Virus record (IMG/VR): IMGVR_UViG_3300009158_000001
Location: 96,001-160,000 of that record
Strand: one strand, 5' to 3'
Source of the DNA: a virus
DNA length: 64,000 nt
Below, piece after piece: positions 22,201-60,174 of this stretch; within the stretch, counting starts at the first letter, position 1, and each line of letters begins with the position of its first letter. The position numbers and the translations under genes were made by a program. Below the pieces are notes generated by a model. It was given only the letters and a program-made list of their open reading frames with translations, was not told the DNA's origin and did not search any database.

Positions 22201-25200
22201 CAATCGCCAAGCTGGAGGCTGCGATTGCCTTCCTCGGGCTCATTGCCCGCGTGGCCCGTCACCAACGGCGCATGGAAGTGTCGGCTGCGCGGTCGAAGCG
22301 CAAGGTGGCTCGCAAGGCCACTGCTAAGCCCGCCGCCAAGAAGATCATTGTCAGGGCCGAGGGTGCAGGTCGTCCCACCTTCCACCCCCGCCGCAGCAAA
22401 GTCCAGGGATACAACCCTGCCGCACAAAGCCGACAGGAGATCATCACCTCACGCGAAAAGCGGGAAGAGCGTCGCCTTGCACGCGAGGCTCGGCACCTCA
22501 CGCTCCTTAATAGGGCATATGCTGCCCTCCTCAACATGGTCGTTGAGGGAACGGCATTCAAAGCAGGCTGGACCCTTCGAGGTGCATGCATGCTGCTGGC
22601 GGACAACATGGCTTGGGTTGCCGCCCAGGCCGAGATCCAAACGTTCGATCAAGATGACGACGTGGCCTGGCAGTATGAGGCAGCCGTCCGCAACATCCCC
22701 TTCGAGATTAAGCGGGAGGTTGAGAACGCAGAGGTCGACGCAGCATGGGCGCTCATCGAGGCCAACGACAAGAAAGTCCTTGCCGAGATCAAGCAAGCGA
22801 ACGCTAAGGCGCGGGCCAAGAGGAAGGCAGAGCGTGAAGAGCGCATTGCCACTCACAGGGCGAAGGTCGACGCAGAGCGGGCCGAACGTGAAGCCGCCAA
22901 GGCCGTAAAGGCCGAAGAGCGCAGGAAGCGGGAAATGGCAAAGGCGGAGCGCCTGGTTGAAGCCCTCAAGGCCCGTGAGGCCAAGAAGGGCAAGACCACC
23001 AAGGTGGATGTTACTCCTGTGTCTCCCGTGGCTAAGCTGCGGGAAGTCCAGGCAAACAGCCCCGTTCTCGCCGTTGTCGCAGGTCTTGGGCTTGCGACTG
23101 GCATGGTGGCCGTTGCCGTCATTGCCCTTGCTGCAATTGCCTTCTTCGCTATTCGCAAGAATCGTGCCGAAGACTGCAAAGAAGAAACGGTCGACGCAGA
23201 TTGGGGCGATCTGCTTGAAGCTCCTGCTGAGCCACAGCCCCAGTCCCTGTTGCTGCGTCTGACAGAGCTCTTGGGCCAAGAGTCTCCTGCGCGGGAGGTT
23301 GTTGCATATGAACCTGCTCCTGCACCAGTTACTGTACCTGCCGAGCCAGAGCCGCAATCTCTTCTTGGGCGTCTTATTGAGCTTCTGCCTGAGGCTGAGG
23401 CGCGTGCTACTGAGCCTGCCACCTGCGCTTGCGGAATACCGCAGGAAGAAGGCTACGTCTGCGATACCTGCGTACTCAATGAGTATGCTGCTGGTATGGC
23501 AAATGCCCTCGAAAATGCGGTCGAAGAGTTTCCCTTCACCGATCCTGGTGACTGGGATGGCGGGGCAATCGATGACGTGTATGCGGCTCAGCTCATGGCG
23601 GCTGACCGTGAAGCCGCGCAACGCGATGCGGCAGACTTGGAAGAGCACCTGCAGGTTCTTGCGGCAGAAGCTGCTCTTGCAGACCTCGACCAGGAAGCAG
23701 AACAGGACATTGATCCGCTAGATCTTCTAGTGGAGAAGGCCAAGGAGGAAGAGATGGAAGAGGAAAAGACCCCTGAGCAGGTCTGGGCAGAAATCTGCAA
23801 TGAGCTGACGGTATCCCCTAGGAACTACTCGGCTAATGCTGCAATGAACATCTTGATTGAGATGTATCAGCGCAAGATTGACCTGTTCCGTTTCCGCCAT
23901 TTCGGCACTACTCGTACGTTCACCCGCAAAGACAAAGACGGGGATAGGCGTACCAGTAAGACAAAGACTCTGCGCAAGGACGTTATTGTCCGGTTTGCCA
24001 GCATCCTGCGTCAGGACAAGGAGATGGCAACGTGGTTTGCGGAAGCAAGTCACGATCCCTCTTGGGAGCAGTTCTGGGTTGGCATCGAGTCCCTTATGAA
24101 GGACAAGAAGCAGGCTTGGACTGCCCAGGATTGGCGTATCCTTCGAGCCAGGTACGAAGCGGCTGTCTTGGTCGTTAACGACCTCTGCATCGAGTTCCTC
24201 GGTCAGTCGAAGAGCAAGCCAAAGTTCATGGCAAGTGAAGTCTCTTGTCTTGTAACCAAAGACACCTTCCGCTACCGTGCAGTTGGTGCGCAGGAAGCGA
24301 TGGAAGCCTGCAAGCGCATTAACGCAAAGCACAAAGGTGGCTTCTGTGTGGCTCGTGGTGTCTACCAAGAGCAAATGCTTAGCGGCTCTCACCTGCCCTG
24401 GGTTGTTGATAAGGCTGACGGGGAAGGCAACTGGCTGGAGTTTGGCTTTGTTCTCACCACCAGCGCTGGTGTTGCAGACTGGGGCTTTGGCCGTGAAAAC
24501 CGCAACAATAGCAGTGTTGAGCTGAAGACTGCCACAGAAATGCTTGGTGGAATTGTCCAGCTTGATCAGTACAAGCCAGAACGTGCGTACATCGAGATGT
24601 TCCACAAGAACTGGACCTTGATGAAGAAGCCCAGCCTTAACGACTGGAAGACTTTCATTAAGACAGCCTTTGCCAATGGCAACATGTTATTCATTAACCC
24701 AACGACAATGGATACCAGGCATGTCGCCAAGAACGGCACCAGTTACAGTAAGTCTGTAACTGACAATGGCACAACAGCCAGCACGGTCCATACTTTCTTC
24801 AACGATGGTAGCGTGACCACGGTAATGACGCGCAAGACTCTTGATGCAAATTCGAAAGGCTTTGCTCACAAGTTCAGCAGTGCGCGGACGACTATCAGGA
24901 AGTTCTTCTTGAAACACTCTGGTATTCGTGATCTCAAGGTTCTTCCTTGGGAAGTTGTCGAAAGCCGAGATGAGCTGGCAACAAAGTTTGGCAATGAGTC
25001 GTATGACCAATACCAGGCATGCCGTAAAGCAATCTCTGCTGATCGCAATCATCGGCTAGACGTTGTAGTTCTTAGCCGCGTGAACAATGCACGGTTTGAG
25101 GCTTGGGCTACTGAGTATGTGCAGAATAAGCAATCATCGGTTGTTTATCACATCAAGACTCGGCAGCCTTTGACGCTCAGCCAGCTCAACAAGCAGAATA

Positions 25201-28200
25201 AGGCCCTTGCAAAGCTGCAGGGTAATTACTTCTTGGCTCAAACTGAGTTGGAAACTAGCCGCGCTGGTATTGCAGCCATTAGGCATACGATTGAGACGAG
25301 TGCTTATACGTCTCAAGAACTGTCTTCTGATTTGATTGAGGCCTTCAAAGAAGGTTACCAATGGATGAAGACTCCTGGTGGCTATCAGTTGGTTAGCGCA
25401 AGAAAAGCTGCAGCAAACCCAGAGAAGATTCTCAAGGGCGAAGCTCTTGCTGCTGTGCTGGATGCGTGGATCAAGACTGCCATTGACGTTCAGGCAGACT
25501 CTCTTCGCGCAGAGGGTGCGAAGATTGTGCGCAGGTACGAAGAAGCACTTCAGCTTCTGCTTCCTGGGTACAGCTGCAAGGTCAATGGTGAGGATTGTCT
25601 CATGGCTGCATACAATAAAGCAGAACATGCGAAAAAGACAGACCCCAGCAATCCTGAGATTGCCTTGCTTCTTGCAGCGTACTATGCGGAGTACGAGAAA
25701 GAGCAAGCGGAGTACGAGAATGAGCAAGCGAAAATCCAAGCGCGTTACGAGAAAACCCATAAGGAATGTCAGGAGTATGAGCAGCGCGTTAAGGAGCAGG
25801 AAGGATGGGATGAAATCCCGTTCTGTAAAGCAGGTGCCGTTCTTTCGGCATTGGCTCTTGCAGCTGGGCTTCCTGCCTTCGTGGTAGTGTTGCCGCTTGC
25901 ACTGACGGCACTGGCTGCTTTCATGAAGATGGAAAACTCTGACGTTGAAGGTGAGGAGATCCTCGCTGACAATGCAGAGTTCTGCCTGTACAGTACACCA
26001 ATTGTCCGTCACACAACAGGCAAGTGGACTGCAGTCAAAGACAACAACACTGGGGAATCCGCCCCAGTCGAAGCTGGCGAAAGCCAGAAGGAGAAGCCCA
26101 TGAGCTTCCTTGACAAGATGAACCAGACCATCCGAAATGTCTGGAACGAGCTCACCGGCCGTGAGAGAATTGGTACTGACGTGAAGACCAAGGCACCTGC
26201 CACGTACGGCTCTATCCTTGCTGCCAGCAAGGTTGAGCACACGGCACTTACCCGTATCTGCGGTGGTAAGATCCGTGAGATGCAAGTCACCGAACTCAGC
26301 AGTGAAGAGCTGCGTGAGATCAAAGACTTCATCCGCCGTGATGGTGACACCTGGATCATTGTCCGCGACTCTCAGAAGTTCCACTTCCCGAACTGGGCAA
26401 TGGAGAAGCTGGTGTCTGAGATTGTGATTGCAGGTCACGCTGTCGACAAGAAGGTCAGCCAGCAGGAAGTGAATAAGTATTTCGGCAGCTTGCTTTGGGC
26501 TCCTGCTGAGATTGTTTCCTTCCAGGCTAGCGAAGCCAAGGTCATGAGTGATGGGCTTGCCGCCATGTACGACGGTACCAACCTGATGAGCGATGAGCTT
26601 GCATCGACTATCGACTGGGTTGGCTATGCAATTCGTCGACTGCTTACGGTACTCGGCTTGTTCAAGGGTATGTTCATTATCCTTCCTGCTGGGTACTTCC
26701 CGTCTGGGGTCAAGCTATTCGGCAGTGAGGTGAAGAAGCACCTTCGTCTGCGTCGGGATAGCGGTCGTGCACTTGCACTGCAGCCTCAGGCTAACGGTCA
26801 CAGTGATGTGGCTAGGACTCTAGGCATGCAGCTTTGGTCCATGCTGTTGGGCCCCTGGATTGCTAGTGTTGGTTTTGCCAATCTAGCGAAGGGAGCGTAC
26901 GGCTATGCAATGTCGAACCTGAACAAGGCTAATGAGCGTCTTCTTGCTCCTGCAGAGGAAGAAGAAGAAGGCCGCGATGCCTTGATGGCTGAGGCTAGCC
27001 GCCTGCACGGGTTCAATCCAATTGCTGTATTCAGGTCTTTTGCGACCAGCATGGCAAACGGGCTCACGAAGTCCTTCAATCCCAACAAGGTGAACATTGC
27101 ACCTGTTGACGAGAAGGGCAGAAGCCTTGTGCCAAACGGCTATCCGATGATGCTGCCTTGGCTTGCGCTGGCAGAGCTGTGGCTCAAGGTCACGGGCAAA
27201 GTGCCAGAAGAGCTTGCTAAGAAGGTTGAAGATACCGAAAAGCTTCGTCTGCGGCTCTTTAAGCTTGCGAACGGCGCAATTCCAGTGCTTGTGCACAACA
27301 TGCACCGCCTTGATGCGGCTAAGGTTGCAGGCATTCGTCGCATGGCTATTGCTGCTATTGCGACTCGCATCCCGACTGGCAAGACCAGCGGTATCGAGGT
27401 TATGCTCTTCGACGCAGAAGAGTATGGGGCAGATCTACTGCCTGAGATCGTTGGCCGTAAGAAGAACGACATTGAGTTCTGGCTCTTCCCTTGCGAGGAG
27501 ACCACGGCCTTCAAGGTTGCTTCTGAGGGCGGCGACGACGACGACCTGTACGAGTTCCTCCTGGGAATTCTGCACAAGCTGGCTCGCCTTGGCCTTGAGT
27601 GGCGGGCAAAGATCCTCGATGTGAGTGCCGATACGCAAAAGGCCATGGACGAAATCAAAGTTCGCTTTGCTCGTCAGGTGGCAGCATTCAAAGAAGACCG
27701 TAAGCTTCTTGCAAAGCTGATGGAGATGCCTTATGCAAAAGTCTTCACGGCAAATGGCAAGGTCAGGGCAGGCTGGCCGTCTCTCTTGGGTGTTACCATG
27801 GCACCAGGTGGATGGCAGATCCGTCACACGGAAGCTGTTGAAGATATCATCGTGATGACCGAGGAGTCCCGTGAAGATATCGCCACCCAGGCTCGCCTCT
27901 TTGCTGAGGTAATGACAGCAAACAACGACAGCCCGTTCACCAGCGCCATTGGCACTGTTGCGCAGAGCCACAAGTTTGCCACTGGCATCTTGACTGGAAA
28001 CGTTGTGCTGACGAACAGTATCGGTGCTCTGGATAAGATCTGGGCACTCTTTGTTCTTGCTACCATTCTGCTGTCGGATATGGTAGACGCTTGCAACAAG
28101 GGCAAGAAGTACGCAGAGGCTGGTGCTGCACTCATGTACCTTAACTGGGCATGGGGCTGGCTGTGCTATCGTATTGCTAGCAATCCAGATGCTAAGGTTA

Positions 28201-30560
28201 TCTGCCCTGCGCAGTATCTAGTATCTGTGCCTCCTGCTGCCAAAGAGCTGTTCAACGCACGTCATGCTAATAAGATGACTGTTGATGGCAAAGTTGTTCA
28301 GCCGGGCAAGCTTCTCAACAATCTCTATGAGAACCATAGAGAGCTTGGCGAGACGGTCGAGGCTATGATCCGCGAAGAGCACAACCGTGCTGAGTTCTCG
28401 GCTACGGTAACTGCGATGCTTCAGACTGTTAGCGTTCCTGTGCCTGGGGCTGCTTCTGCTCAGGGTATGGGCTCGGAAGTCTGGGCTGAAGTCTGGACTG
28501 CAAGCGGCCGCAAGAAGATCTACCTGGATGGTCTCAAGCAGAAGTCTGCTATGAGGTTCGAAGACATTCGGGCAGAGCAGCGTTACATGGCAGAACTCAA
28601 CAATGCAACCGTCTACGCAGCACATGCTGAGTTTGACCGTATTGTCATGGGTCGCCTTGTGAAAGCTGATCCTAACGCTACTAGTGAGGAGATTGCAGCT
28701 ATGTTCAAGCTTTGCAAGCTTGGCATGGTCTACTCGTATGCTTTCAAGACTGTTGGCTACGAAGAGAACTGCGTCAAGATCCTTATGGATGAAGAGGGAG
28801 AGTTCGGCGCTTCTGGCGGCGTTCCTACCTACATCATCCCTGTCAGCGGCAACTGCACCTTTATCGGCAACTTTGCAGGTAGCAGCGAGATCCTCCTTGA
28901 GTGGATGATGAATCCTGCTACACTCGCACTTGTTGCTGAGATCAAAGCCAAGGCTGGCGACTTCAAGTACGTCGTTCTCTCCATGAAGGGTGAAGCCTTT
29001 GGAGAGATGATTGACGGCGGTCGTGACCTCAGGTACAGCGAGGCTGACTTTGATGGCAAATCCATCACGGAGATCCTCTGTATGCCTGGCGTTGCTCTTG
29101 CTGGCAATCAGCGTGAAGAAAGCCACGTTGATCAGAGCACCTGGCTTGCAAGTGTAGCAGACACGGTCACGCAACGTCGCAACGACATTCTTCGCAAGCT
29201 GAAGGCGGAGAACAAAGCAGCAGAAGCATTGCTTCGCGGCAAGACTTTCGGAGAGCTTCTTCAGGAGTTCAACGTAACGGTCGTCGCAGAGTCCGTCACT
29301 GGCACTGCCAAGGTCGAAAAGATCGAGGCGTTCAAGTGGATGGACAAGAAGCATGCGGGTCGTACGTACCCAAACACCTTTGTCATTGTTCGCTTCGGGA
29401 ATGAAGCAGATCCTGTGACTGAGGAGATGGAAGAGGATGATATTACCATCTTCCTTGCTGACGAAGTGATTGAGGCTGCTCCTGACACCAAGGAGAACAT
29501 TACGATCGAGGCCTCTGCTCCTGTGGTTGAAAAGACTGCAGAAGCAAAAAAAGACAGCATAAGCGATAAGCTCAACCGCATCTTCGGCAAGAAGGAGGCT
29601 GTTAAGCCCCCTGCTCCTATCGAAGTCGTGCCTGCTGCTGTTGTTGCGGCTGCTACTGGACAAGAGGAGCTCAAGATCCTGAGCATTTCTGAGCCTGCCT
29701 TTGCGAAAGAAGGATGGTCCCAGACCAGCGAAGGAAAGCTTGTGCGCCGCACTTTCAGCAAGACCAAAGTCAAGGAAGTCTTTGCTGCTGGCTGGAACTT
29801 CTGCTTCTGCGAGGGCGATGGAGACAAGTGGGTCATTGCAGACACCCGCTTTGGTTTTGTCATTGGCCGCGGACAGACTCAGGTCATAGCGTTGCAAAGG
29901 GCAATTGCAAACACCCAGGCTGCTAAGGTTGGACGCAACCTTCTTGACGAAGTCCAGTTCTCGAACTGGCTCTTTGACCGTGCAACTCAGGCTCAGCGTC
30001 CGCTTGTTGACCTGATTGCAGAGCACAACAAGAAGGAAGAGCCCGTGGCCGAGGCAACTCCTGCTACTCCTGTTGTTGTCGCAGAGACTGCTGGTACTAA
30101 GCCTACTAGCCGTTGCGTTGGTAACTTCGCATTGGCTGGCCTTCAGCACTCTAGTAACGTCAATGTTGCTGAGCGTGAGCTTGTTGAGGGCGTAAAGATT
30201 ACTCTCATCCGCAATGTGGCTCACCCCAAGGATGCAAATGCCGTTGAGGTCCATGTGAATGGTTACCGCTTCGGGTATGTTCCTAAGGAAGCCGCTGCAA
30301 GGCTGGCTCCTCGGATGGACATCGGCGTGAAGGCGTGGGCCATTGTCACGGGATGGGAAAACGGGTACGCCCGCTTCGATCTGTTCCTTGGCAAGACGCC
30401 CACTACCTTGGAGACGTTCAACTACCAGCGTGACGAAATCGAGCGTGCATGCGAGGGGCTTGCCTGGCTGGAGTCGTACGACGCGACCGATGAACAGAAG
30501 GCTCCGGCTAATGCCCTCCTTGCGCACTTTGCTGCCCTTTGTGGTAGCCTTAAGCTCTGA
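19269..30560 (+). CDS. 3763-aa polyprotein: TM segments, two trypsin-like serine proteases, YonO/RdRP-like double-psi-barrel RNA polymerase, HIRAN domain
   Basis: GITHC...GDSGG and TAAHC...GDSGG; YDGTNLMSDELA, IRR...FKGM, TRIP, GGDDDD, SAIG, SDMVDACNKG in cellular-RdRP order; HPKDANAVEV...FGYVP (HIRAN). Confidence 0.75.
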   Translation: MTIALIVLAIFVCIVILSNTVSYLMTANKTAPITPAEVRMNNNNHPLIVLAIVTLVVIGGLVTFGIGKTAGLWAQPSFEDLVDPYAVAEYEQVALRITSFPHPGVGQYSPDEGTNCTGWAWKGHMYGITHCDVDTYIIGKETGETPDPVVRINTDHVVSVPVLGNDLYTVGMECSPDLRWWGATTGEWRNLDWSDIDVETFSPNNRAASLMLERWHGSVNRAQDALAQQNEYSASLYTNTALFQQGEWEILSKGQRYCYDSQDDVVGHGGWFRSGDSGGVLLAGDEPIGAVSYSNGSETRNCFSAIALSQEKSYQDFEFRELSSTTMDLTGKFKTAASHSGMQGRIFRSLNTETTNAHQGKENFMPYLILAILGLILAAATTTIKVKEFLMSNLRTIVIGFLIVLGLVVPIVLAWNHALTVCPVTDAWFSVNFMNGALVSIVVEMAAIAAVLAMATLISEMSCPKWMVKPILAITPNLATITANKAKESVMPIRLYIAIILTIAIFVPMALIATFREAFVCILGLGPLAFTAIDLILHVEYHYHVRELSIVTKKLIAHQKLHKLLFGGMALLAMVLGGCGDTIQQAPAGMGEIVAAHNGECSAFHWQGQIRTAAHCTYASTDWRDNATAVLHQQQGKHAIPEDLADIGQECSPDLRWWGATTGRTLPVEDVKFYAVKRGQNVWDLGEQVPPWTPGAQACFTQTLHNRFSDGDSGGPLLAGDEPVGSVSWSSNLPWGMACFGRLEKQPMWGNLSTSSPQGGKGFRMKSIEMTDSLAVTLTQVFTDLAIAGAILALAFLLARVRAKFRTHDETNAGNSAGLIGAKNPSKGHMSPILAFVARLTSVIVILLLGVCLLAAPGVTPLVSSNNSPTIETGIDPEAIAKIVQRLKKRLAYGMRMAKKKRWTVRRLNRWLVANGYKAKAKKAKKAVAKAVVKFDRAGMTRRQRRAKAHKAKVAATKAETKARGVKRRAEAKATNDAIAKLEAAIAFLGLIARVARHQRRMEVSAARSKRKVARKATAKPAAKKIIVRAEGAGRPTFHPRRSKVQGYNPAAQSRQEIITSREKREERRLAREARHLTLLNRAYAALLNMVVEGTAFKAGWTLRGACMLLADNMAWVAAQAEIQTFDQDDDVAWQYEAAVRNIPFEIKREVENAEVDAAWALIEANDKKVLAEIKQANAKARAKRKAEREERIATHRAKVDAERAEREAAKAVKAEERRKREMAKAERLVEALKAREAKKGKTTKVDVTPVSPVAKLREVQANSPVLAVVAGLGLATGMVAVAVIALAAIAFFAIRKNRAEDCKEETVDADWGDLLEAPAEPQPQSLLLRLTELLGQESPAREVVAYEPAPAPVTVPAEPEPQSLLGRLIELLPEAEARATEPATCACGIPQEEGYVCDTCVLNEYAAGMANALENAVEEFPFTDPGDWDGGAIDDVYAAQLMAADREAAQRDAADLEEHLQVLAAEAALADLDQEAEQDIDPLDLLVEKAKEEEMEEEKTPEQVWAEICNELTVSPRNYSANAAMNILIEMYQRKIDLFRFRHFGTTRTFTRKDKDGDRRTSKTKTLRKDVIVRFASILRQDKEMATWFAEASHDPSWEQFWVGIESLMKDKKQAWTAQDWRILRARYEAAVLVVNDLCIEFLGQSKSKPKFMASEVSCLVTKDTFRYRAVGAQEAMEACKRINAKHKGGFCVARGVYQEQMLSGSHLPWVVDKADGEGNWLEFGFVLTTSAGVADWGFGRENRNNSSVELKTATEMLGGIVQLDQYKPERAYIEMFHKNWTLMKKPSLNDWKTFIKTAFANGNMLFINPTTMDTRHVAKNGTSYSKSVTDNGTTASTVHTFFNDGSVTTVMTRKTLDANSKGFAHKFSSARTTIRKFFLKHSGIRDLKVLPWEVVESRDELATKFGNESYDQYQACRKAISADRNHRLDVVVLSRVNNARFEAWATEYVQNKQSSVVYHIKTRQPLTLSQLNKQNKALAKLQGNYFLAQTELETSRAGIAAIRHTIETSAYTSQELSSDLIEAFKEGYQWMKTPGGYQLVSARKAAANPEKILKGEALAAVLDAWIKTAIDVQADSLRAEGAKIVRRYEEALQLLLPGYSCKVNGEDCLMAAYNKAEHAKKTDPSNPEIALLLAAYYAEYEKEQAEYENEQAKIQARYEKTHKECQEYEQRVKEQEGWDEIPFCKAGAVLSALALAAGLPAFVVVLPLALTALAAFMKMENSDVEGEEILADNAEFCLYSTPIVRHTTGKWTAVKDNNTGESAPVEAGESQKEKPMSFLDKMNQTIRNVWNELTGRERIGTDVKTKAPATYGSILAASKVEHTALTRICGGKIREMQVTELSSEELREIKDFIRRDGDTWIIVRDSQKFHFPNWAMEKLVSEIVIAGHAVDKKVSQQEVNKYFGSLLWAPAEIVSFQASEAKVMSDGLAAMYDGTNLMSDELASTIDWVGYAIRRLLTVLGLFKGMFIILPAGYFPSGVKLFGSEVKKHLRLRRDSGRALALQPQANGHSDVARTLGMQLWSMLLGPWIASVGFANLAKGAYGYAMSNLNKANERLLAPAEEEEEGRDALMAEASRLHGFNPIAVFRSFATSMANGLTKSFNPNKVNIAPVDEKGRSLVPNGYPMMLPWLALAELWLKVTGKVPEELAKKVEDTEKLRLRLFKLANGAIPVLVHNMHRLDAAKVAGIRRMAIAAIATRIPTGKTSGIEVMLFDAEEYGADLLPEIVGRKKNDIEFWLFPCEETTAFKVASEGGDDDDLYEFLLGILHKLARLGLEWRAKILDVSADTQKAMDEIKVRFARQVAAFKEDRKLLAKLMEMPYAKVFTANGKVRAGWPSLLGVTMAPGGWQIRHTEAVEDIIVMTEESREDIATQARLFAEVMTANNDSPFTSAIGTVAQSHKFATGILTGNVVLTNSIGALDKIWALFVLATILLSDMVDACNKGKKYAEAGAALMYLNWAWGWLCYRIASNPDAKVICPAQYLVSVPPAAKELFNARHANKMTVDGKVVQPGKLLNNLYENHRELGETVEAMIREEHNRAEFSATVTAMLQTVSVPVPGAASAQGMGSEVWAEVWTASGRKKIYLDGLKQKSAMRFEDIRAEQRYMAELNNATVYAAHAEFDRIVMGRLVKADPNATSEEIAAMFKLCKLGMVYSYAFKTVGYEENCVKILMDEEGEFGASGGVPTYIIPVSGNCTFIGNFAGSSEILLEWMMNPATLALVAEIKAKAGDFKYVVLSMKGEAFGEMIDGGRDLRYSEADFDGKSITEILCMPGVALAGNQREESHVDQSTWLASVADTVTQRRNDILRKLKAENKAAEALLRGKTFGELLQEFNVTVVAESVTGTAKVEKIEAFKWMDKKHAGRTYPNTFVIVRFGNEADPVTEEMEEDDITIFLADEVIEAAPDTKENITIEASAPVVEKTAEAKKDSISDKLNRIFGKKEAVKPPAPIEVVPAAVVAAATGQEELKILSISEPAFAKEGWSQTSEGKLVRRTFSKTKVKEVFAAGWNFCFCEGDGDKWVIADTRFGFVIGRGQTQVIALQRAIANTQAAKVGRNLLDEVQFSNWLFDRATQAQRPLVDLIAEHNKKEEPVAEATPATPVVVAETAGTKPTSRCVGNFALAGLQHSSNVNVAERELVEGVKITLIRNVAHPKDANAVEVHVNGYRFGYVPKEAAARLAPRMDIGVKAWAIVTGWENGYARFDLFLGKTPTTLETFNYQRDEIERACEGLAWLESYDATDEQKAPANALLAHFAALCGSLKL

Positions 30561-30582
30561 GGTTACTATGAAGGAGATCCTC

Positions 30583-30840
30583 ATGAAGTACATGGGTGGT
30601 GCTAAGTATCCTGGTCCTTGCCGCAATTGCAGCCGCTACTGTGGTTGTGATACACTGCGGCTCTTCCGAGATGACCGATATAAGGCAGCGAAGTGGGTCA
30701 CAATCTGCACAGATTGCTGTGAAGAATGGGATGCCCGCTTCAACAAGCCCAAGGCCATTGTGGCTCCTCAACCTGCTCCTGTAAAGGAAGTGAAGGTTGT
30801 GGAAGTCGCTAAGCCAAAGCAACTTTCGTTGTTCGGCTAG
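30583..30840 (+). CDS. small Zn-finger protein ending in beta-clamp-binding motif QLSLF
   Basis: AAGGAG SD at 30571; CRNC...C..C and CTDCC; C-terminal QLSLFG. Confidence 0.7.
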   Translation: MKYMGGAKYPGPCRNCSRYCGCDTLRLFRDDRYKAAKWVTICTDCCEEWDARFNKPKAIVAPQPAPVKEVKVVEVAKPKQLSLFG

Positions 30841-30884
30841 AGAACTGACAGTTTGAACTAAAGCCCTATTCTACAACCCTTTTC

Positions 30885-30913
30885 AAAAGAGCTCACTTTG
30901 TGAGCTTTTTTTT
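30885..30913 (+). terminator. intrinsic terminator of the polyprotein operon
   Basis: AAAAGAGCTCAC-TTT-GTGAGCTTTTTTTT. Confidence 0.8.
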
Positions 30914-31225
30914 ACTACTTACTTACAGAGGCCAAACGACTCCGCTACTCCGCTCCCCCTCGAAAGCCTGTGTGTATTTTGTAATTTCTGCACCCCCTTG
31001 GAGAGGCTCCTGCGTCGCCCAGAGCATTGTAGGCTTCGCTCCCTGGCAACAAAGCTAGACCAACGAGAGGTCTGGTGGGCCTCCTGCGTCGGCCAGATAT
31101 AGTGAGCGTTCACGCTTGCTATACTGGCGGATCCGTCCCAGTAGATGCGAGAGATAACGGATAGGTACCTCCCAAACGTCTACCTTGTCGGGTGTGGGAA
31201 GGCCGAAAACGCTGACAAGGAAAGA

Positions 31226-31260
31226 ACCTCTGGCCTCACGGCTGGGGGTTCTTTTTTTTC
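31226..31260 (+). terminator. intrinsic terminator
   Basis: AACCTCTGGCC-TCAC-GGCTGGGGGTT followed by T-run. Confidence 0.75.
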
Positions 31261-31524
31261 CACTCCGCTGAATAACCAGATAACTTGTGGCAACCAGGGG
31301 TCTTACGAGGCTCCTTCGTCGCCCAAAGCATCGGATGGTGGCTGCCGCTACCCGTATCAGAGAAGGCCTGTCGGTCTCTGGTATGTATCAGACAGGGGCG
31401 GTTGCCAGTCCGCCTAACAGAAAAACTGGCCGTCATCCCCTTTAGGATGGCATGTTTACGTCCCCTCTTGGACGGGTTCCTGGTAGTGGTAATCCTACTT
31501 ACTGCGTACCAGGATAGAGAGGTA

Positions 31525-31563
31525 AAGCCCCAGCACAGTAGGATGTGTTGGGGTTTTATTTTT
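31525..31563 (+). terminator. intrinsic terminator
   Basis: AAGCCCCAGCAC...GTGTTGGGGTTTTATTTTT. Confidence 0.7.
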
Positions 31564-31747
31564 GTTACTCCGCTATATAAGTAGATTACTAGTAACTATA
31601 TAGTGGTTTGTTGGCGGCTCCTACGTCGCCCAAAGCACTGGGCGTTGACGCTCTGCCATCTCCGTTGGTAGAGACTAGCTTTAAAACACGGGGAGTCCCA
31701 GGTCGGCCTTACGGGCTTGGATAAGACTATTGGCAGAAGGACAGATT

Positions 31748-31781
31748 CCCACTACTAGGCCGGTAGTGGGTTTCTTTTTTT
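31748..31781 (+). terminator. intrinsic terminator
   Basis: CCCACTACT-AGGCC-GGTAGTGGG followed by T-run. Confidence 0.75.
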
Positions 31782-31843
31782 GGCCTCCTTCGTCGGCCAG
31801 AGATTATGAGGCACTTTCGCCTCTCGGTCCTTAGGAGGACACC

Positions 31844-32056
31844 ATGAAGGCAGGTAAGTATCACTCGTACGACTGGCGAACCGAGCGGGATGCGGATGCT
31901 GATAGGAGCGTCTTCGTCCAGGCCTGGAAAGCCAAGTTCCCTGGGGTCGTGCCGCAGTTCGCCATCATCCTGGATGACGGCAGTTGCCACTGGTGGAACG
32001 AATGGCCAGACGGGCGGACTCGGCGGCTTCCGCCTAGCACATTCAAGATCGGCTAA
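31844..32056 (+). CDS. hypothetical early protein
   Basis: AGGAGG SD; lies between a hairpin motif and a terminator. Confidence 0.75.
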   Translation: MKAGKYHSYDWRTERDADADRSVFVQAWKAKFPGVVPQFAIILDDGSCHWWNEWPDGRTRRLPPSTFKIG

Positions 32057-32061
32057 AGATA

Positions 32062-32095
32062 GACCCTCGGCTTCGGTTGGGGGTTTTTCTTTTCT
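32062..32095 (+). terminator. intrinsic terminator, cUUCGg loop
   Basis: ACCCTCGGC-TTCG-GTTGGGGGT plus T-run. Confidence 0.8.
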
Positions 32096-32480
32096 CACTC
32101 CGCTACACAGTGGGGTGGCTCCAGCTCCCGGACTCTTCGGCGGTCAGCAGGTAGGAACCCAATAGCAAAAAGAGGCGAAAAAATATAGACTCCGCTATAG
32201 GCCGGAAAGGTTATATCAACTAGTAGTGTTGAGAGCTCCTGCGTCGCCTAAGTGTTGTGAGGTAATCGCGGACCTCTTAGTCATGTTCCAACCCTGGGGA
32301 GCATGATGAGCCTAGTTAGACAAGGCAAAACGAACAAAGGGAGTAGGTGTCCATCCGCCGAAGTTAAGAGCACCTGTACGCGGGACTCGGGATGGAACTC
32401 ATGTGCTGGATCTCCTAAGGAGGCACATGTTTAAACAGAAGAGGGGATGACCTGCGCATGTCACAAAACTGCCCCAATTT

Positions 32481-32515
32481 TAACCCTCTGGCTTCGGTCG
32501 GAGGGTTTTTCTTTT
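32481..32515 (+). terminator. intrinsic terminator, cUUCGg loop
   Basis: AACCCTCTGGC-TTCG-GTCGGAGGGTT plus T-run. Confidence 0.8.
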
Positions 32516-32573
32516 GGCCTCCTGCGTCGTCCAGAGAAAGTGGGCAACTTTCGCCCCAAACGGAGAAGAGAAC

Positions 32574-32753
32574 ATGCAGTACGATCTTACAGTGACACAA
32601 AGCCCCAGCGGACTCGTATACTTTCGGGTATACAGCAAAGAGACCGGTGATTGCAAGTGCATCCTGAGCATCGACCCCAAGGACGGGTCTCTCGAGGCGG
32701 CAACGGGTGACGAGGAGTTCACGGGCTACTCCATCGTTGGAGAACTCGTCTAA
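32574..32753 (+). CDS. hypothetical early protein
   Basis: GGAG SD, MQYDLTVTQS...; followed by a terminator. Confidence 0.7.
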   Translation: MQYDLTVTQSPSGLVYFRVYSKETGDCKCILSIDPKDGSLEAATGDEEFTGYSIVGELV

Positions 32754-32757
32754 GAGA

Positions 32758-32788
32758 GACCCTGGCTTCGGCTGGGGTTTCTTTTTTC
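32758..32788 (+). terminator. intrinsic terminator, cUUCGg loop
   Basis: ACCCTGGC-TTCG-GCTGGGGT plus T-run. Confidence 0.8.
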
Positions 32789-32847
32789 AGGCTCCTTCGT
32801 CGCCCAAGGAAAATGGGTAATGTCACCCTTCCTTTACGGAGTCGAAG

Positions 32848-33252
32848 ATGAACAGTGTCAATTTTGTCGGGTTTCTTACTTCCACCCATAAGGAAGTGGG
32901 CGATGTCCTCTGTGTCGTCGTGAAGAGTGTCGATGGGAACAGTGCTCCCACTGTGCGTTTCACGGGCAAGCAGCGTGAGGCTCTCAAGAAGTGGGGCACC
33001 CCCGGACGTCTTGTGAGCATCAGTGGCAGCTTCGGAACGGAGGTGAATGGCAAGGTGAAGGACTCCTTCATCGCCTGCGCCTACAGCCGTTTCTTGGACA
33101 AGCAGGAGACTGTGGCTAAGGCTGCTGCTCCTGTTGCGGCACCTGTCGTGGCTGCTGCACCTGTCAAGGCTGCAAAGGCTCCCAAGGCTGCAAAGGCCAC
33201 AAAGGCTGCTCCTCCCGCGAATGTCGATCCTGACGACGTTCCGTGGGCGTAA
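32848..33252 (+). CDS. divergent single-stranded DNA-binding (OB-fold) protein
   Basis: MNSVNFVGFL start, GRLVSISG strand, AKA-rich linker, acidic tail DDVPW. Confidence 0.6.
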   Translation: MNSVNFVGFLTSTHKEVGDVLCVVVKSVDGNSAPTVRFTGKQREALKKWGTPGRLVSISGSFGTEVNGKVKDSFIACAYSRFLDKQETVAKAAAPVAAPVVAAAPVKAAKAPKAAKATKAAPPANVDPDDVPWA

Positions 33253-33255
33253 CTA

Positions 33256-33287
33256 ACCCCTGGCTTCGGCTGGGGGTTCTTTTTCTT
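33256..33287 (+). terminator. intrinsic terminator, cUUCGg loop
   Basis: AACCCCTGGC-TTCG-GCTGGGGGTT plus T-run. Confidence 0.8.
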
Positions 33288-33434
33288 GACTCCGCTATGG
33301 GCCGGTGCAGTTCCAGCTCCGAGACGTCTGGCGGCTGTCAGGGAGAAGACCATCATCAAAAAGAGGCGAAAATAAATGGGCTCCTGCGTCGCCTAGGTAC
33401 AGTGAGGGTTTGTCCTCGTTGCCAGGAGTCTGTC

Positions 33435-33575
33435 ATGTTTGAGAAAGTGTCGCTTGAAGACTGTTACGGTATCGCTGTGGGTGGTGAGGACGAGATGATC
33501 GCCCGCATCGACGAGGCCAATGAGTACGTGTACAACCACGATGAGTTGGATGACTTCGACTACAGCGAAGGTTGA
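33435..33575 (+). CDS. small acidic hypothetical protein (46 aa)
   Basis: AGGAG SD, MFEKVSLEDC...; followed by a GAAA-loop terminator. Confidence 0.6.
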   Translation: MFEKVSLEDCYGIAVGGEDEMIARIDEANEYVYNHDELDDFDYSEG

Positions 33576-33639
33576 AGAGATGGCCCGAAAGGGTCTTTTC
33601 TTTTCTAAGACAAAGGGGCCTCCTGCGTCGGCCATATGT

Positions 33640-34078
33640 CTTGAGTCTCGGCTCTACAGTTTACGGCGTCGAGTAGGTTACATTGCGAATAATAGGGGAT
33701 GTAAACCCTATTGCTCGTACTGCAAGACGTCATCCTTTGAGAGTTTACTAGTAAAATCATAAGTGCGCCTGCCGCTTATGGGAACCTAGTGAGAGTCAGG
33801 GTTGCAAACCTGGCTATAACAAATAGGCTGACTATTATGGGACCCTGCCCTGGTAGTTATATGAACATGGGGTGGTCTGCTGCAGCGGGCCTTTGATCAG
33901 TCGGGTGTTCGCTATACAGATACTGAACGGGTGACCACGCCCACAGTTGAGTGCAAGGCTCAGCAATTAGGATTCCTACGAGAAGGGTTCAATCCCCTTT
34001 TTCATCGGCCACATGCCATGTAGGGTTCAGTATCAGCGCAATGTATGGCTATGGGTTCGAGTCCCATATGATTGAATT
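33640..34078 (+). ncRNA. structured non-coding region with several tRNA T-arm-like hairpins
   Basis: GAAGGG-TTCAAT-CCCCTT at 33982, ATGGG-TTCGAGT-CCCAT at 34051; no convincing ORF; follows the hairpin motif at 33618. Confidence 0.45.
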
Positions 34079-34105
34079 ACTTTACACCGTCCTAAGGAGG
34101 ACAAC

Positions 34106-34684
34106 ATGGATAAGAGCATGATCTTCAATTTCAATACCGTTGTCTTGTTTGCGACCGAGATCGCCAAGAGGATGAACTTCCTGGGATACGATACGACCTA
34201 CAGCGTCTCTATGACCGAGTTCAGTGGCCCGACCATCTCGGCTGCCATCAGGGGCAACACCGAGAAAGAAGGGTGGTACATTGTGGAGCACGGGATGTTC
34301 CATGATGCGCACAAAGGCTTCGAGGTCAATTTCACGATTGGCCTCCCCAGCGCAGAGGGTGAGTACATCTCCGAGTGGGTGAAGGCCAAGATCAACAGGA
34401 TCCGCCTCCGTGACTGCTTGGAGATCAACGAGACCCTGTACTCCGTTCCGACTCTGGAAGTTTACTCGGAGCGGTTTGGAGGGACGTATGCTTTCTACAG
34501 TGCAATCCCCACCTTGACGAAACACTTCGACTTCACGGTCAAGAACGTCAAGGGTGACATGGATGGCCTCATCGATCTGTTCTGGGGACAGAAGGGCCTC
34601 CTCAGCAAGATTGAAGACCCCGACTGTGCAATCGAAGAGTTCAACAACCTCCTGGTTGAGTTGGGCGATTCTGTCTCGTCCTAG
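34106..34684 (+). CDS. hypothetical protein
   Basis: 192 aa, AAGGAGG SD. Confidence 0.8.
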   Translation: MDKSMIFNFNTVVLFATEIAKRMNFLGYDTTYSVSMTEFSGPTISAAIRGNTEKEGWYIVEHGMFHDAHKGFEVNFTIGLPSAEGEYISEWVKAKINRIRLRDCLEINETLYSVPTLEVYSERFGGTYAFYSAIPTLTKHFDFTVKNVKGDMDGLIDLFWGQKGLLSKIEDPDCAIEEFNNLLVELGDSVSS

Positions 34685-34771
34685 TAGTCCAATAGGTCCA
34701 CAGCCTGCAACCTGCCCGTTGGTAGGCTAACCTATCAGATGTCATGTCTGGTAGCCACAAAGGCTGCATCA

Positions 34772-34813
34772 CTTCCTTATGGTAATAGATAGGTTCGAAT
34801 CCTATCAGGAAGA
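34772..34813 (+). ncRNA. minimal tRNA-like element (acceptor-like stem plus T arm, no anticodon arm)
   Basis: CTTCCT...ATAGG-TTCGAAT-CCTAT-C-AGGAAG. Confidence 0.4.
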
Positions 34814-34839
34814 CTTTACCCCCTTATATAGGTGACAAG

Positions 34840-35043
34840 ATGAAACATGTGCCCGGACATAGTTCGATGGATGAGCAGGCTATGGAGACTGTAATCTCTC
34901 ATGGGAAGTTTCTTCTTGAGAGAGCAAATGCAGTACTACATTTATATCCCCAGCTCCAAGAGTATAGGGATGCACTGGTAGAGATGCAGAAGTATGCCGA
35001 GAAGGCAATGGATAATGGACACTTCCCCGATTCCGACCTCTAA
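34840..35043 (+). CDS. hypothetical protein
   Basis: 67 aa, AGGTG SD. Confidence 0.6.
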   Translation: MKHVPGHSSMDEQAMETVISHGKFLLERANAVLHLYPQLQEYRDALVEMQKYAEKAMDNGHFPDSDL

Positions 35044-35061
35044 CGTCCTTAGGAGGACACC

Positions 35062-35244
35062 ATGCGAATAAAGCATAACATTATCGTTACGTGGAAAGAT
35101 TGTGACAAGGGGTGCTGCGAGGACTATAGGGTATTCCAGTTCTCTGGTAGTCCCGGACAGGCAATTAGGTTTTCCCAAGAGGTAGCAAAACTTCATCCTA
35201 CTACATTCCGTATTAGGATCTATCAATACGACAACGAGGAATAA
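35062..35244 (+). CDS. hypothetical protein
   Basis: AGGAGG SD. Confidence 0.65.
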   Translation: MRIKHNIIVTWKDCDKGCCEDYRVFQFSGSPGQAIRFSQEVAKLHPTTFRIRIYQYDNEE

Positions 35245-35246
35245 TC

Positions 35247-35705
35247 ATGAATATGAATACCGTTGAGGATATGCACAAGATCTTGAGAATCCTGGATGCC
35301 GAAGTAGCAAAGAGGAAGATTCCTTTTGATGTGATTCCAGAGAGAACAGCGGCGGAGTATCGTGCCCTGGCCGAAGACCATGAAGAGTATGTTGCTCTTC
35401 TTGCAAGAGAGAGGAAGGTAATCAATGCCTACTTCAATGCCGTTCAGATGCAGGAGTGGGCACAGAACCACAAGCGCTGGATACAGACGGGATTGAACGG
35501 TTATACTACCCATGAGTTGAGCCCTGTTGGCAAAGAGACCCTGAACAGATACCTCAACAAAGTAGTTGAGGAAATCTGGTGGGATGCCAATGAGGACCGT
35601 CTTGTGACAGAATTCGAAAGTTCCCGCCAGTACCTCGGCGATGATGATCGCAACTTTGAGTGGTACATCAACAGGGAATATGAAACTTACCTTCAAACCC
35701 TCTAA
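35247..35705 (+). CDS. hypothetical protein
   Basis: 152 aa, GAGGA SD, coupled to the previous gene. Confidence 0.75.
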   Translation: MNMNTVEDMHKILRILDAEVAKRKIPFDVIPERTAAEYRALAEDHEEYVALLARERKVINAYFNAVQMQEWAQNHKRWIQTGLNGYTTHELSPVGKETLNRYLNKVVEEIWWDANEDRLVTEFESSRQYLGDDDRNFEWYINREYETYLQTL

Positions 35706-36274
35706 CAGGAAAAACAATGAAAATGATACCTGTTGATCTTTGGATGAACTTTGATGGATGGCTAGACGAAAACTACGATCTTCTTGATAAGGAGTTCGTT
35801 GAGATCTATGGAAAGGATGGATCAAGTAAAGACTTTGGCCAGTTCGCTGCAAGTAAACACAATGAATACTGTGAATCCCTTAAGAAGTAAGAGGTGTACT
35901 GTGAATAAGTTTATCAATGTGACTGTCCGCGTTCCTACGTCCAACATCGTAATCAGTGAGTCTCATGACGACATTGATACTGCGATGTGTAGGGGAGAAA
36001 TTCTGTCTAAGGCCTTGGGCGGTTCTTGGACTATGACCTTCAATGCTAACCAGGTCAAGATCTAATGGTCTGGTATACTTGGCAATTTCGTTTCTTCCTT
36101 GCCTTTTGGCAACTTTACCTGTGAGGTTATAATGCACGAAATTAAGATTGATGATCATGTTGTCCAGCTCAATAACTGGCAGTTCGGTACTTTGTTCTTC
36201 TTTTGTTTGTCGGGGCTTGGCGCTCTCTCCATGGTTCTCATGGTTATCATCGACATCATCCGTTGGAGTATGCA

Positions 36275-36424
36275 ATGAAGATTACATTCAATGTTAACGA
36301 GTCCTTCGCTGAGGTTCATAGCCTTGGCTTCGCAACAACTTGCCTTCTTTTTGCCAGTCTCATCTCTGGCATCTCTTACTGGATCATCGCAGCAGTGATG
36401 TTCTTTGATTCCAGTTACGTATAG
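36275..36424 (+). CDS. small membrane protein
   Basis: GGAG SD, hydrophobic helix. Confidence 0.5.
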   Translation: MKITFNVNESFAEVHSLGFATTCLLFASLISGISYWIIAAVMFFDSSYV

Positions 36425-36527
36425 GACATATAATGAAGATGACGTTTCTGTATATCCTGGCAATCACCTTACTTATTACTGTGATCAAGATCATTCAGAT
36501 CCTTGATCCTACTTACTGGAGTTAGTC

Positions 36528-38940: not shown

Positions 38941-39306
38941 CCAAATCAGGGAGATCAGGGAGGCCGGTGCTTCAATAGACCGGTAACAGGATTCCAGCTC
39001 CCAGCTCCGTTCCGAGACCAGGGCAAGGACAAGAGTTACTAGCCAAAAAGAGTCGAGAGATTAACAGTCAAAAAGATAAAACTTTACTAGAAATAAAATG
39101 GACAAAAAGAGTCCAGAGTTACGAAGGCAGCTTTTACCCTATAGGGGTATATACAGTATATAGTATAGAGGTATATAGACTGGTCAAAAAGAGTCGAGAG
39201 AATAGCTTTATATGGCTTTTGGCATATAGGGGTATATAGAGGTATAAGACGGGCTTACGCGAGGACAAGGTATATTGGTATAGTTTGTAGGAGCGGGGTA
39301 GGTATA

Positions 39307-39400
39307 GCAGGGAATATGCAGGGAATCTGCAGGGAATATGCAGGGAATCTGCAAGGTATAACGCAGGGTTTGCAGGGAATATGCAGGGAACTAGCAGGTC
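39307..39400 (+). repeat. tandem 11-bp repeats GCAGGGAAT(A/C)T (iteron-like)
   Basis: four contiguous copies 39307-39350 plus further copies and variants to 39400, followed by an AT-rich stretch. Confidence 0.8.
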
Positions 39401-39571
39401 ATAGCATAGTCTAATACTGTATCCTCTATATACTCTTATATGCTTTATGCTATTTACTCTTTAAAACACTAGTTTATTTTAGGCGGCCTCCTGCGTCGGC
39501 TAAATTGCTTGTATTTACTTTTTGATCTTGTTTACGAAGATCTTTAACTAATCTTTAATGGAGACTTACCT

Positions 39572-55742: not shown

Positions 55743-56057
55743 ATGTTGTATCCTCATGCTGATACTTTTTGGATTCCTAGTCTTGCTGGTGATTATCATA
55801 CAGTTCAGACTCCAAGAGGGCCGCTTACGGCTTATATTGTAGAACAGACTGATGAGATTAGACTTATTCGGCGCGATCCGTTTAGCCAAGTGTATTATGT
55901 TCTTGATCCTCAAATGTCTGGTAGCACATTCATGATGTCTGTTGCAGAATGGAATGGTGGCAAGATGGTACAAGACGCATTCCCTATGCTTAGGTCAGAG
56001 GAGCGTGAATTCCTTCTTACTGGCATGGTAGACAGCTGGCCTGTTAAGGAACTATGA
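55743..56057 (+). CDS. conserved phage hypothetical protein
   Basis: VQDAFPML..EEREFLLTG motif. Confidence 0.75.
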   Translation: MLYPHADTFWIPSLAGDYHTVQTPRGPLTAYIVEQTDEIRLIRRDPFSQVYYVLDPQMSGSTFMMSVAEWNGGKMVQDAFPMLRSEEREFLLTGMVDSWPVKEL

Positions 56058-57193: not shown

Positions 57194-57373
57194 TGCCTTT
57201 GCTCAGGTGGCGAAATCGGCATACGCAGCAGACTTATAGAAAATTTGAGCCCTATAGGGGAAACCTTATAGGTGAACACAATCAAATTCGGTGAAGGCTA
57301 AACTAGTTTACTAGCATGCTAATACCGAGCTAAGCCTTAAATGGCAAACGCACAGTTTATTCTCCATTACCTA

Positions 57374-57382
57374 TGCTATAAT
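57374..57382 (+). promoter_or_regulatory. extended -10 promoter for a leaderless HNH mRNA
   Basis: TGCTATAAT ends 6 nt before ATG 57389; no SD. Confidence 0.55.
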
Positions 57383-57388
57383 ATTACT

Positions 57389-60166: not shown

Positions 60167-60174
60167 GGAAATTT

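What the first reader, a model, noticed from the sequence alone, without database searches (positions are those of the whole stretch)
30915..32515. Array of motif-to-terminator cassettes with no convincing ORF: probable early small-RNA genes
Seen: units ~31095-31260, ~31325-31563, ~31632-31781 and ~32250-32515 each start at a hairpin motif, contain stems (e.g. TACTGG/CCAGTA, CCTTGTCGG/CTGACAAGG, TCATGTTCC/GGAGCATGA) and end in a terminator. They have the same layout as the neighbouring coding cassettes but lack an SD-led ORF, except a 7-codon MFKQKRG. The 32250 and 31325 units are rich in GGA. Inference: a battery of phage sRNAs, possibly protein sponges (CsrA/RsmA-type) or anti-defence decoys.
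Basis: partly seen in the sequence, partly recalled or inferred. Interest (0 to 1): 0.72.

Follow-up and report, generated by a model that had tools for sequence, protein, structure and literature searches.

The report
Shuffled pseudoknot RNA genes in phage
An uncultured lake phage carries a set of small non-coding RNA genes, each with its own promoter and terminator and built from interchangeable knot-like folds that related phages mix and duplicate; they most likely act as decoys for host proteins early in infection, but no function has been shown.

Summary
The units are real. In a 174-kb freshwater phage, four ORF-free cassettes (about 31104-31260, 31333-31563, 31640-31780, 32259-32515) lie between a hairpin motif and an intrinsic terminator, just downstream of a phage two-barrel RNA polymerase gene. 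Eight related loci keep them as strings of pseudoknot modules with compensatory changes (double-pseudoknot module: 96% of cells paired, 7 pairs changed on both sides). Modules are swapped, duplicated and fused between cassettes. No ORF is conserved; the stop of MFKQKRG is a paired base that is lost in a relative. The 32259 unit appears at low depth in two lake metatranscriptomes; the other three were not seen. Rfam has no match. The CsrA-sponge idea fails: GGA is not enriched and is mostly paired. Best reading: stable, modular RNA decoys for host RNA-binding proteins, probably defence nucleases, like phiTE pseudo-ToxI (about 0.4), though these are not type III antitoxins by membership tests. 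The scan has flagged the double-pseudoknot unit and followed up a sibling RNA (here 33640-34080) on other DNA before.

The parts
26100..30560 (+). Two-barrel (QDE-1/RdRP/gp64-like) RNA polymerase part of the 3763-aa ORF 19269-30560; inferred enzyme for the hairpin promoters
   Evidence: Model pLDDT 89; Foldseek best hits QDE-1 (E 1e-5), P23-45 gp64 8F72 (E 2e-4); HIRAN at C-terminus. Link to the motif is inferred.
30939..30954 (+). Motif Q (ACTCCGCT) x2; further copies at 31262, 31567, 32097, 32189, 33289; upstream element, usually about 50 bp before motif P
   Evidence: 8 copies vs 1.3 expected; 26 of 45 Q-P distances are 48-53 bp across nine loci
31003..31076 (+). Mini-cassette A: motif P plus two short hairpins, no terminator; runs into cassette B
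   Evidence: conserved in L011
31078..31094 (-). Motif P, putative phage-polymerase promoter: on the template strand a stem, tandem G.A pairs and a C(GNA)G triloop. Copies for the other units at 31308, 31615, 31782, 32233
   Evidence: 81 copies in nine loci; flanking pairs swap C-G/G-C (47/29), inner pair swaps, loop centre varies; 32 of 40 SD-ATG starts lie 43-50 nt downstream. Promoter role inferred.
31104..31260 (+). ncRNA B: 5' hairpin, pseudoknot B1 (loop AUCCGU : ACGGAU), pseudoknot B2 (UCCCA : UGGGA, CUCCA : UGGAG in relatives), terminator
   Evidence: orthologs in L003 and L011; start inferred
31333..31563 (+). ncRNA C: 5' hairpin, double-pseudoknot module, C-rich-loop hairpins, AUAGAGA linker, terminator whose loop can kiss an upstream UCCUAC loop
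   Evidence: orthologs in L009-L012, L027
31352..31431 (+). Double-pseudoknot module (DPK): P1 stem with loop CCUGUC : GACAGG, then GGCGG/CCGCC stem with loop CCAGU : ACUGG and an A-rich linker
   Evidence: 10 copies, 96.1% cells paired, 7 pairs with changes on both sides, slid controls 33-49%; one copy in this genome, two in each of three relatives
31456..31563 (+). Shared 3' domain: CUCU-loop hairpin (partner AGAG in the linker), UCCUA loop or bulge, terminator with UAGGA loop
   Evidence: 12 copies; CUCU hairpin stems differ in sequence; UCCUA and UAGGA are lost together in L010:10497. The two loop-loop helices are invariant, so not proven by covariation.
31640..31780 (+). ncRNA D: tandem pseudoknots D1 (loop UCUCCGU : ACGGGGA) and D2 (two stems, loop CCUU/CUUUC : AAGG/GAAAG), terminator
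   Evidence: D2: 7 copies, 95.5% paired, 5 pairs changed on both sides; D1 stem wholly replaced in L003:713 with loop and partner kept
31844..32056 (+). Ordinary coding cassette, 70-aa orphan protein with strong SD, interleaved in the array
   Evidence: conserved in L009 and L012; no family hit
32097..32231 (.). Q-bounded spacer, related to 33289-33376; no folding signal
   Evidence: family D9; z = +1.3
32259..32515 (+). ncRNA G: 5' hairpin, pseudoknot M5 (32281-32349, loop CCCU : AGGG), multibranch G2, hairpin that buries SD and AUG, 3' pseudoknot (32447-32475), terminator
   Evidence: M5 in six loci, CCUC: GAGG in L027; 3' pseudoknot has two compensatory pairs vs L009; RNA contigs in runs X23 and X24
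32427..32450 (+). MFKQKRG: not a conserved peptide; the U of its stop codon is a paired base
   Evidence: TGA here is CGA in L009, with a compensating A to G, and the frame then runs through the terminator
33640..34080 (+). Sibling ncRNA H (outside the finding): repeated pseudoknots and a tRNA-like 3' domain; carries a D2 module in L010

Best explanation
These are early non-coding RNA genes of a phage. Shown: each unit lies between motif P and a terminator, has no conserved ORF, and is a string of pseudoknot modules that relatives keep by compensatory change and recombine, duplicate or fuse. Inferred: the phage's own two-barrel RNA polymerase reads motif P as a template-strand DNA hairpin and makes each RNA at high copy early in infection; the 5' hairpin, knots and knotted terminator make it long-lived. 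Most likely function (inferred): the modules are shapes, not guide sequences, and titrate host RNA-binding proteins, most plausibly anti-phage endoribonucleases of the type III toxin kind, as phiTE pseudo-ToxI does. The changing mix of modules would then track the changing defence arsenal of hosts, with the repeated terminator-Q-P joints as recombination points.
For: Covariation in DPK and D2, M5 and the G 3' knot. One-sided changes in the pseudoknot helices are G-U on the + strand, and all 15 units fold better as + strand RNA. Module order differs in every relative; L027 fuses C- and G-type modules into one 430-nt RNA. Nearly every C/U-rich loop has a conserved purine partner, leaving no free seed. 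The second knot of DPK has a short loop 1 and an A-rich long loop, the build described for cptI and tenpI (PMC13682666). A phage pseudoknot decoy that works by repeat expansion is known (PMC3475682). Neighbours are small orphan proteins, one very acidic and one SSB-like. G and H occur in lake RNA libraries in which the 3-kb polymerase stretch has no real cover.
Against: No target protein is identified and the host is unknown. Modules are diverse, not near-identical tandem repeats, and abut without single-stranded tails or recurring A-rich cleavage sites. No copy of DPK was found in bacterial genomes by one exact pattern, so no mimicked host RNA is in hand. B, C and D were not seen in the RNA libraries; contigs give neither strand nor ends. 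Motif P also occurs in microviruses that encode no polymerase, so its promoter role is inferred from position only.
Confidence: 0.4

Rival explanations
1. Nuclease roadblocks or sinks: tandem pseudoknots stall host exoribonucleases (RNase J, PNPase, RNase R) like flaviviral xrRNAs, tying up RNA decay and so stabilising phage mRNA.
For: Tandem knots near the 5' end and a knotted 3' end; xrRNAs block bacterial RNase J1 mechanically (PMC5760640).
Against: No Rfam xrRNA match; a mechanical block would not need eight or more different modules or invariant loop sequences; most units protect no downstream message.
Confidence: 0.15
2. Translation-machinery ligands: the RNAs bind ribosomes, ribosomal proteins or tRNA-handling enzymes to redirect translation; G, with a buried SD-AUG followed by a knot, would be a ribosome trap or regulated leader.
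For: G has SD, AUG and a pseudoknot 7 codons later; sibling RNAs H and I end in tRNA-like domains with covarying acceptor stems.
Against: B, C and D have no SD-AUG and no T-loop; the SD of G sits in a hairpin; the slippery-looking UUUAAAC is in the wrong frame and not conserved.
Confidence: 0.13
3. Parts of phage ribonucleoproteins: the RNAs scaffold or regulate phage proteins (the polymerase, the SSB-like protein, small orphan proteins).
For: Fixed position right behind the polymerase gene in all relatives that hold both; ornate phage RNAs that form complexes are known (bioRxiv 10.1101/2024.12.08.627333).
Against: Module content varies freely between close relatives, unlike a core machine; no TROVE, RT or CsrA gene in the genome.
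Confidence: 0.12
4. Selfish or near-neutral RNA or DNA modules that spread by recombination between repeated terminator-promoter joints, with no effect on the host.
For: Cassette shuffling like T4-type PeSL elements (PMC2839356); copy number varies.
Against: Compensatory changes across several helices show selection on RNA fold; no mobility enzyme found; no ribozyme core found.
Confidence: 0.08
5. Base-pairing small RNAs that silence host mRNAs through C-rich, anti-SD-like loops.
For: Loops such as CCUCUU, UCCUAC and UCUCCGU resemble anti-SD seeds.
Against: Each loop has a conserved partner inside the same RNA; no 13-nt antisense match to phage genes except one chance hit. Host mRNAs could not be tested.
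Confidence: 0.07
6. CsrA/RsmA sponges.
For: G has 10 GGA in 266 nt.
Against: No enrichment over shuffles (P 0.07-0.8); C has no ANGGA; most GGA are paired, and the one clearly open GGA of C is the kissing-loop partner.
Confidence: 0.03

Closest known systems
phiTE pseudo-ToxI and type III antitoxin RNAs ToxI, CptI, TenpI (PMC3475682, PMC5086642, PMC13682666)
   Same: Phage-borne non-coding RNA made of H-type pseudoknots, number of modules variable, no cognate toxin gene; one knot has the short-loop-1, A-rich-long-loop build of cptI and tenpI.
   Different: At least eight unrelated modules instead of one repeat; many separate promoter-terminator genes; knots abut without tails; no sequence match to any antitoxin family; no activity shown.
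T4-type PeSL cassettes (PMC2839356)
   Same: Repeated terminator-plus-promoter joints bound small exchangeable cassettes whose order differs between close relatives.
   Different: No sigma-70 promoter; a hairpin motif instead; cargo includes structured RNAs, not only small ORFs.
N4 virion-RNAP hairpin promoters (PMC4496689) and P23-45 gp64 non-virion RNAP (PMC10770324)
   Same: Template-strand hairpin with C:G-closed GNA triloop; a two-barrel phage polymerase like gp64, which uses a GC-rich motif.
   Different: Extra tandem G.A pairs, longer gap to the inferred start; N4's enzyme is T7-like, and no hairpin is described for gp64.
Flaviviral xrRNAs (PMC5760640)
   Same: Tandem pseudoknotted modules in a viral non-coding RNA.
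   Different: No three-way junction or 5' threading shown; DNA phage; stand-alone genes; no Rfam match.
CsrB/RsmZ sponges (PMC10729762)
   Same: Stand-alone terminated small RNAs with many stems.
   Different: No repeated GGA loops; loops are C/U-rich and knotted.

Membership tests
CsrB/RsmY/RsmZ sponge | Many GGA motifs above background | tested here: not met
   2.0-3.8 per 100 nt, P 0.07-0.8 vs shuffles; coding cassettes 1.4-3.0
CsrB/RsmY/RsmZ sponge | ANGGA displayed in hairpin loops | tested here: not met
   ANGGA counts 2, 0, 1, 3 in B, C, D, G; most GGA paired or used in pseudoknots
CsrB/RsmY/RsmZ sponge | Binds CsrA | not testable with these tools
   needs gel shift or reporter
Type III antitoxin / pseudo-ToxI | H-type pseudoknot monomer | tested here: met
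   covarying knots
Type III antitoxin / pseudo-ToxI | Tandem repeats of one monomer | tested here: not met
   units B, C, D, G hold different modules; DPK is single here and doubled, not adjacent as a rule, in relatives
Type III antitoxin / pseudo-ToxI | Single-stranded tails with A-rich cleavage sites between monomers | tested here: not met
   only one A5 run in the four units, inside a knot loop; no AAAU
Type III antitoxin / pseudo-ToxI | Toxin gene after the terminator (true TA locus) | tested here: inconclusive
   no ToxN hit in two genomes, but the control rang nowhere; downstream ORFs have no family hit
Type III antitoxin / pseudo-ToxI | Neutralises a ToxN/CptN/TenpN/AbiQ toxin | not testable with these tools
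   needs rescue assay
Any Rfam 15 family (riboswitches, ribozymes, GOLLD/ROOL, CRISPR repeats) | Score at gathering threshold | tested here: not met
   only tRNAs in the window; best weak hit NsiR1 26 bits vs 39 needed, driven by the terminator
Small self-cleaving ribozymes | Hammerhead, twister, pistol or HDV-like core | tested here: not met
   no Rfam hit; simple core patterns absent from the + strand of the four units; new classes not excluded
xrRNA | Blocks 5'-3' exoribonuclease | not testable with these tools
   needs RNase J1/Xrn1 assay
N4-type hairpin promoter | Template-strand hairpin, C:G-closed GNA loop, stem identity free | tested here: met
   a few L153 copies depart from GNA
N4-type hairpin promoter | Directs initiation by the phage polymerase | not testable with these tools
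   fixed spacing to start codons only
Y RNA / retron ncRNA | Partner Ro60 (TROVE) or reverse transcriptase gene | tested here: not met
   none in the complete genome, controls positive

The most novel reading that the evidence does not exclude
A combinatorial library of RNA decoys: the phage keeps eight or more distinct pseudoknot aptamers, each aimed at a different host RNA-binding defence or decay protein, and reshuffles them between independently transcribed cassettes, the RNA counterpart of an anti-CRISPR or anti-defence protein island.
Probability: 0.25. Interest if true: 0.88.

Novelty: new variant of a known kind. Interest (0 to 1): 0.64.

Why it matters
RNA-based counter-defence is known from few cases (pseudo-ToxI, RNA anti-CRISPRs), each with one motif. 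Here a phage group devotes much of its early region to several uncatalogued pseudoknot families in exchangeable cassettes. The modules are short (60-110 nt) and well delimited, so they can be used directly as baits to find host RNA-sensing or RNA-cutting defence proteins. The hairpin motif gives a testable promoter for a little-studied two-barrel phage polymerase.

Tried and rejected
Rfam, gathering and E-value modes, on the window and five relatives: nothing but tRNAs. BLAST against cultured phages: no match for the array or two proteins. Single-sequence fold of the polymerase failed; the alignment fold worked. Metagenome scan with the Q-P pattern returned chance hits only. DPK pattern hits in bacterial genomes and L148 lack the second knot: chance. 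Kissing-loop helix length alone does not beat control terminators (5-9 bp in both); the apparent compensations between the window and L012 at its ends are also explained by hairpin-closing pairs, so I count only register, invariance and joint loss. The 34077-to-33779 joint in an RNA library is not circular RNA: a DNA run has it too. Absence of B, C, D from RNA libraries is no evidence. DNA folding of motif P cannot score sheared G.A pairs and did not tell the strands apart. Motif P as an HDV-like P3/L3 element: rejected, as it follows terminators directly and lacks P1/P2 partners. One search used a mis-indexed structure (corrected); one search timed out. Literature searches found no description of these RNAs.

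Full report
Setting. The window is bases 96001-160000 of a complete 174,107-bp phage genome, found in lake and freshwater metagenomes, with no match among cultured phages. The flagged array lies in a GC-rich early block right after a 3763-aa ORF whose part from 26100 folds as a two-barrel RNA polymerase, closest to QDE-1/RdRP and the P23-45 gp64 and gp96 enzymes. In P23-45 a non-virion polymerase of this kind transcribes early genes from a GC-rich motif (PMC10770324). The host is unknown; one gene has weak similarity to myxosortase-anchored proteins (E 0.002), a hint at Myxococcota only.

Observation. The upstream motif P (TCCTNCGTC with complementary arms) has 14 exact copies in the window, all on the + strand and all downstream of the polymerase gene. 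No sigma-70 promoter lies inside the array. Whole units fold far better than shuffles, but much of that comes from the terminator and 5' hairpin: cores alone give z = +0.1, -2.5, -2.7 and -1.7 for B, C, D, G, against -1.0 to +0.2 for coding controls. The claim of GGA richness fails: counts match shuffles and neighbouring coding cassettes, and most GGA are paired.

Motif P. Across nine loci, 81 copies keep arm pairing while swapping C-G and G-C (47 vs 29 at the second pair); the inner pair also swaps, one relative (L027) adds a pair, and the loop centre varies. On the template strand this reads as stem, tandem G.A pairs and C(GNA)G triloop, the loop type of N4 hairpin promoters (PMC4496689). 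In coding cassettes 32 of 40 SD-led starts lie 43-50 nt downstream (the script only counted starts beyond 35 nt). A second motif Q sits 48-53 bp upstream in 26 of 45 cases. I read P as the promoter of the phage polymerase, with starts about 9-11 nt past the motif. This is inference. The same hairpin occurs on the coding strand of two microviruses that have no polymerase, so it may be a general single-stranded DNA signal.

Relatives. Homologues of the polymerase and of the 134-aa protein, and pattern scans, gave eight related loci. All that cover the region have the same P-cargo-terminator cassettes in different order. The non-coding cargo is modular: window C is C0-DPK-3' domain; L009 has C0-DPK-DPK-3' domain; L012 has M5-M6-DPK-3' domain; L003 has D1-D2-D2 and D1-D2-3' domain; L027 fuses C0-DPK-M5-M6-DPK-3' domain into one 430-nt unit; L010 places D2 inside the sibling RNA H.

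The modules are pseudoknots. DPK (31352-31431), ten copies: 96.1% of cells paired, 7 of 23 pairs changed on both sides, 0 of 500 shuffles as high, slid controls 33-49%. Its first knot helix varies only by G-U, its second has one compensated pair. D2, seven copies: 95.5% paired, 5 pairs changed on both sides, all in the two stems; the knot helix varies by G-U only. D1 keeps loop and partner while its stem is replaced. M5 in unit G changes loop and partner together in L027 (CCCU:AGGG to CCUC:GAGG). B has two knots, one with a matched change in relatives. The 3' domain, twelve copies, pairs a CUCU loop with an AGAG linker and a UCCUA loop with the UAGGA terminator loop; both helices are invariant, but UCCUA and UAGGA vanish together in one unit, and coding cassettes end in UUCG-type terminators instead. 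Copies are related, so these counts are not probabilities. All 15 units tested fold better on the + strand.

Not peptides. No ORF with a ribosome-binding site is conserved in B, C or D. In G the SD and AUG are buried in a hairpin; the stop codon's U pairs in a 3' pseudoknot and is C in L009 with a compensating change, after which the frame runs through the terminator (two sequences only).

Expression. Three lake metatranscriptomes were laid on 27500-36500. G appears in two (a 175-nt contig at 32267-32441 with 3 differences, depth 3; an L009-like contig ending at 32453). The sibling RNA H appears in all three (depth 22, 99, 501; the next ORF has depth 3-6 in the last run). The polymerase stretch has no real cover. 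The runs were chosen for holding this region and contigs show neither strand nor ends, so this is support, not proof; B, C and D were not seen.

What it does. Nothing matches Rfam; the genome has no TROVE, RT or CsrA gene; DPK was not found in bacterial genomes by one exact pattern. Knotted loops leave no free seed, which argues for recognition by shape. Several different shapes, freely duplicated and exchanged, in an early region among small orphan proteins, fit decoys under host-driven turnover better than a fixed machine. The precedent is phiTE pseudo-ToxI, which blocks ToxN by repeat expansion (PMC3475682), and the second knot of DPK has the build of cptI and tenpI (PMC13682666). But the units are not tandem repeats and lack A-rich tails, so they work like such decoys at best and are not members. 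I give the decoy model 0.4; that the units are real structured RNAs, about 0.9. Rivals are nuclease roadblocks (PMC5760640), translation ligands, phage RNP scaffolds, selfish modules, base-pairing sRNAs and CsrA sponges. The shuffling itself resembles PeSL cassettes (PMC2839356).

Verdict. A real, uncatalogued group of modular pseudoknot RNA genes in a small clade of lake phages; function unproven. The scan has met parts of it before on other DNA. New variant of a known kind; interest 0.64.

Noticed in passing
window 33640-34080: Larger non-coding RNA H behind motif P: repeated pseudoknots (loop CCCUGCC, partner ACAUGGG; 1-3 copies in relatives) and a tRNA-like 3' domain with an 8-bp covarying acceptor-like stem, D-loop-like segment and T arm, no CCA. 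Most abundant part of the region in three RNA libraries; tandemly duplicated in one relative.
   Followed up: partly
window 34690-34825: Second tRNA-like RNA (6-bp acceptor, T arm, optional inserted hairpin in L027); relatives have motif P in front of it, this genome and L027 do not.
   Followed up: partly
window 19269-30560: 3763-aa ORF that looks like many small genes fused in frame ahead of the polymerase; relatives have separate small genes and a 1535-2181-aa polymerase. Catalytic loop reads GGDDDD instead of GGDxDGD.
   Followed up: partly
L001:1328-1380 and L002:760-810: Two Microviridae genomes carry the same G.A-tandem, GNA-triloop hairpin twice in their non-coding region, on the coding strand; possible host-read priming or promoter signal.
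   Followed up: no
L027:2154 and 2622: This relative uses a longer variant of the hairpin motif (one extra pair) and has far fewer copies; its C- and G-type modules are fused.
   Followed up: partly
window 32848-33252 and 33435-33575: 134-aa SSB-like protein with an Ala/Lys/Pro linker and acidic DDVPW end, and a 46-aa very acidic protein; candidates for host-takeover or DNA-mimic functions.
   Followed up: partly
window 30568-30840: 90-aa Cys-rich protein ending in QLSLFG, a beta-clamp-binding-type motif.
   Followed up: no
window 39040-39460: Cluster of 11-nt tandem repeats, TATA-rich repeats and a 34-nt inverted repeat near the last early motif P copy; possible replication origin.
   Followed up: no
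L159:1600-2163: 187-aa Cys-rich protein with signal peptide and GC-TM-RRR tail, weakly like MYXO-CTERM proteins; hint at a Myxococcota host.
   Followed up: partly
window 56054-62372: UvdE, spore photoproduct lyase, adenylosuccinate synthetase and ATP-dependent DNA ligase genes.
   Followed up: no
L009:7315-7350: The unit-G frame in L009 reads MSKQKRGRPR, an AT-hook-like start, but has no stop before the terminator.
   Followed up: partly
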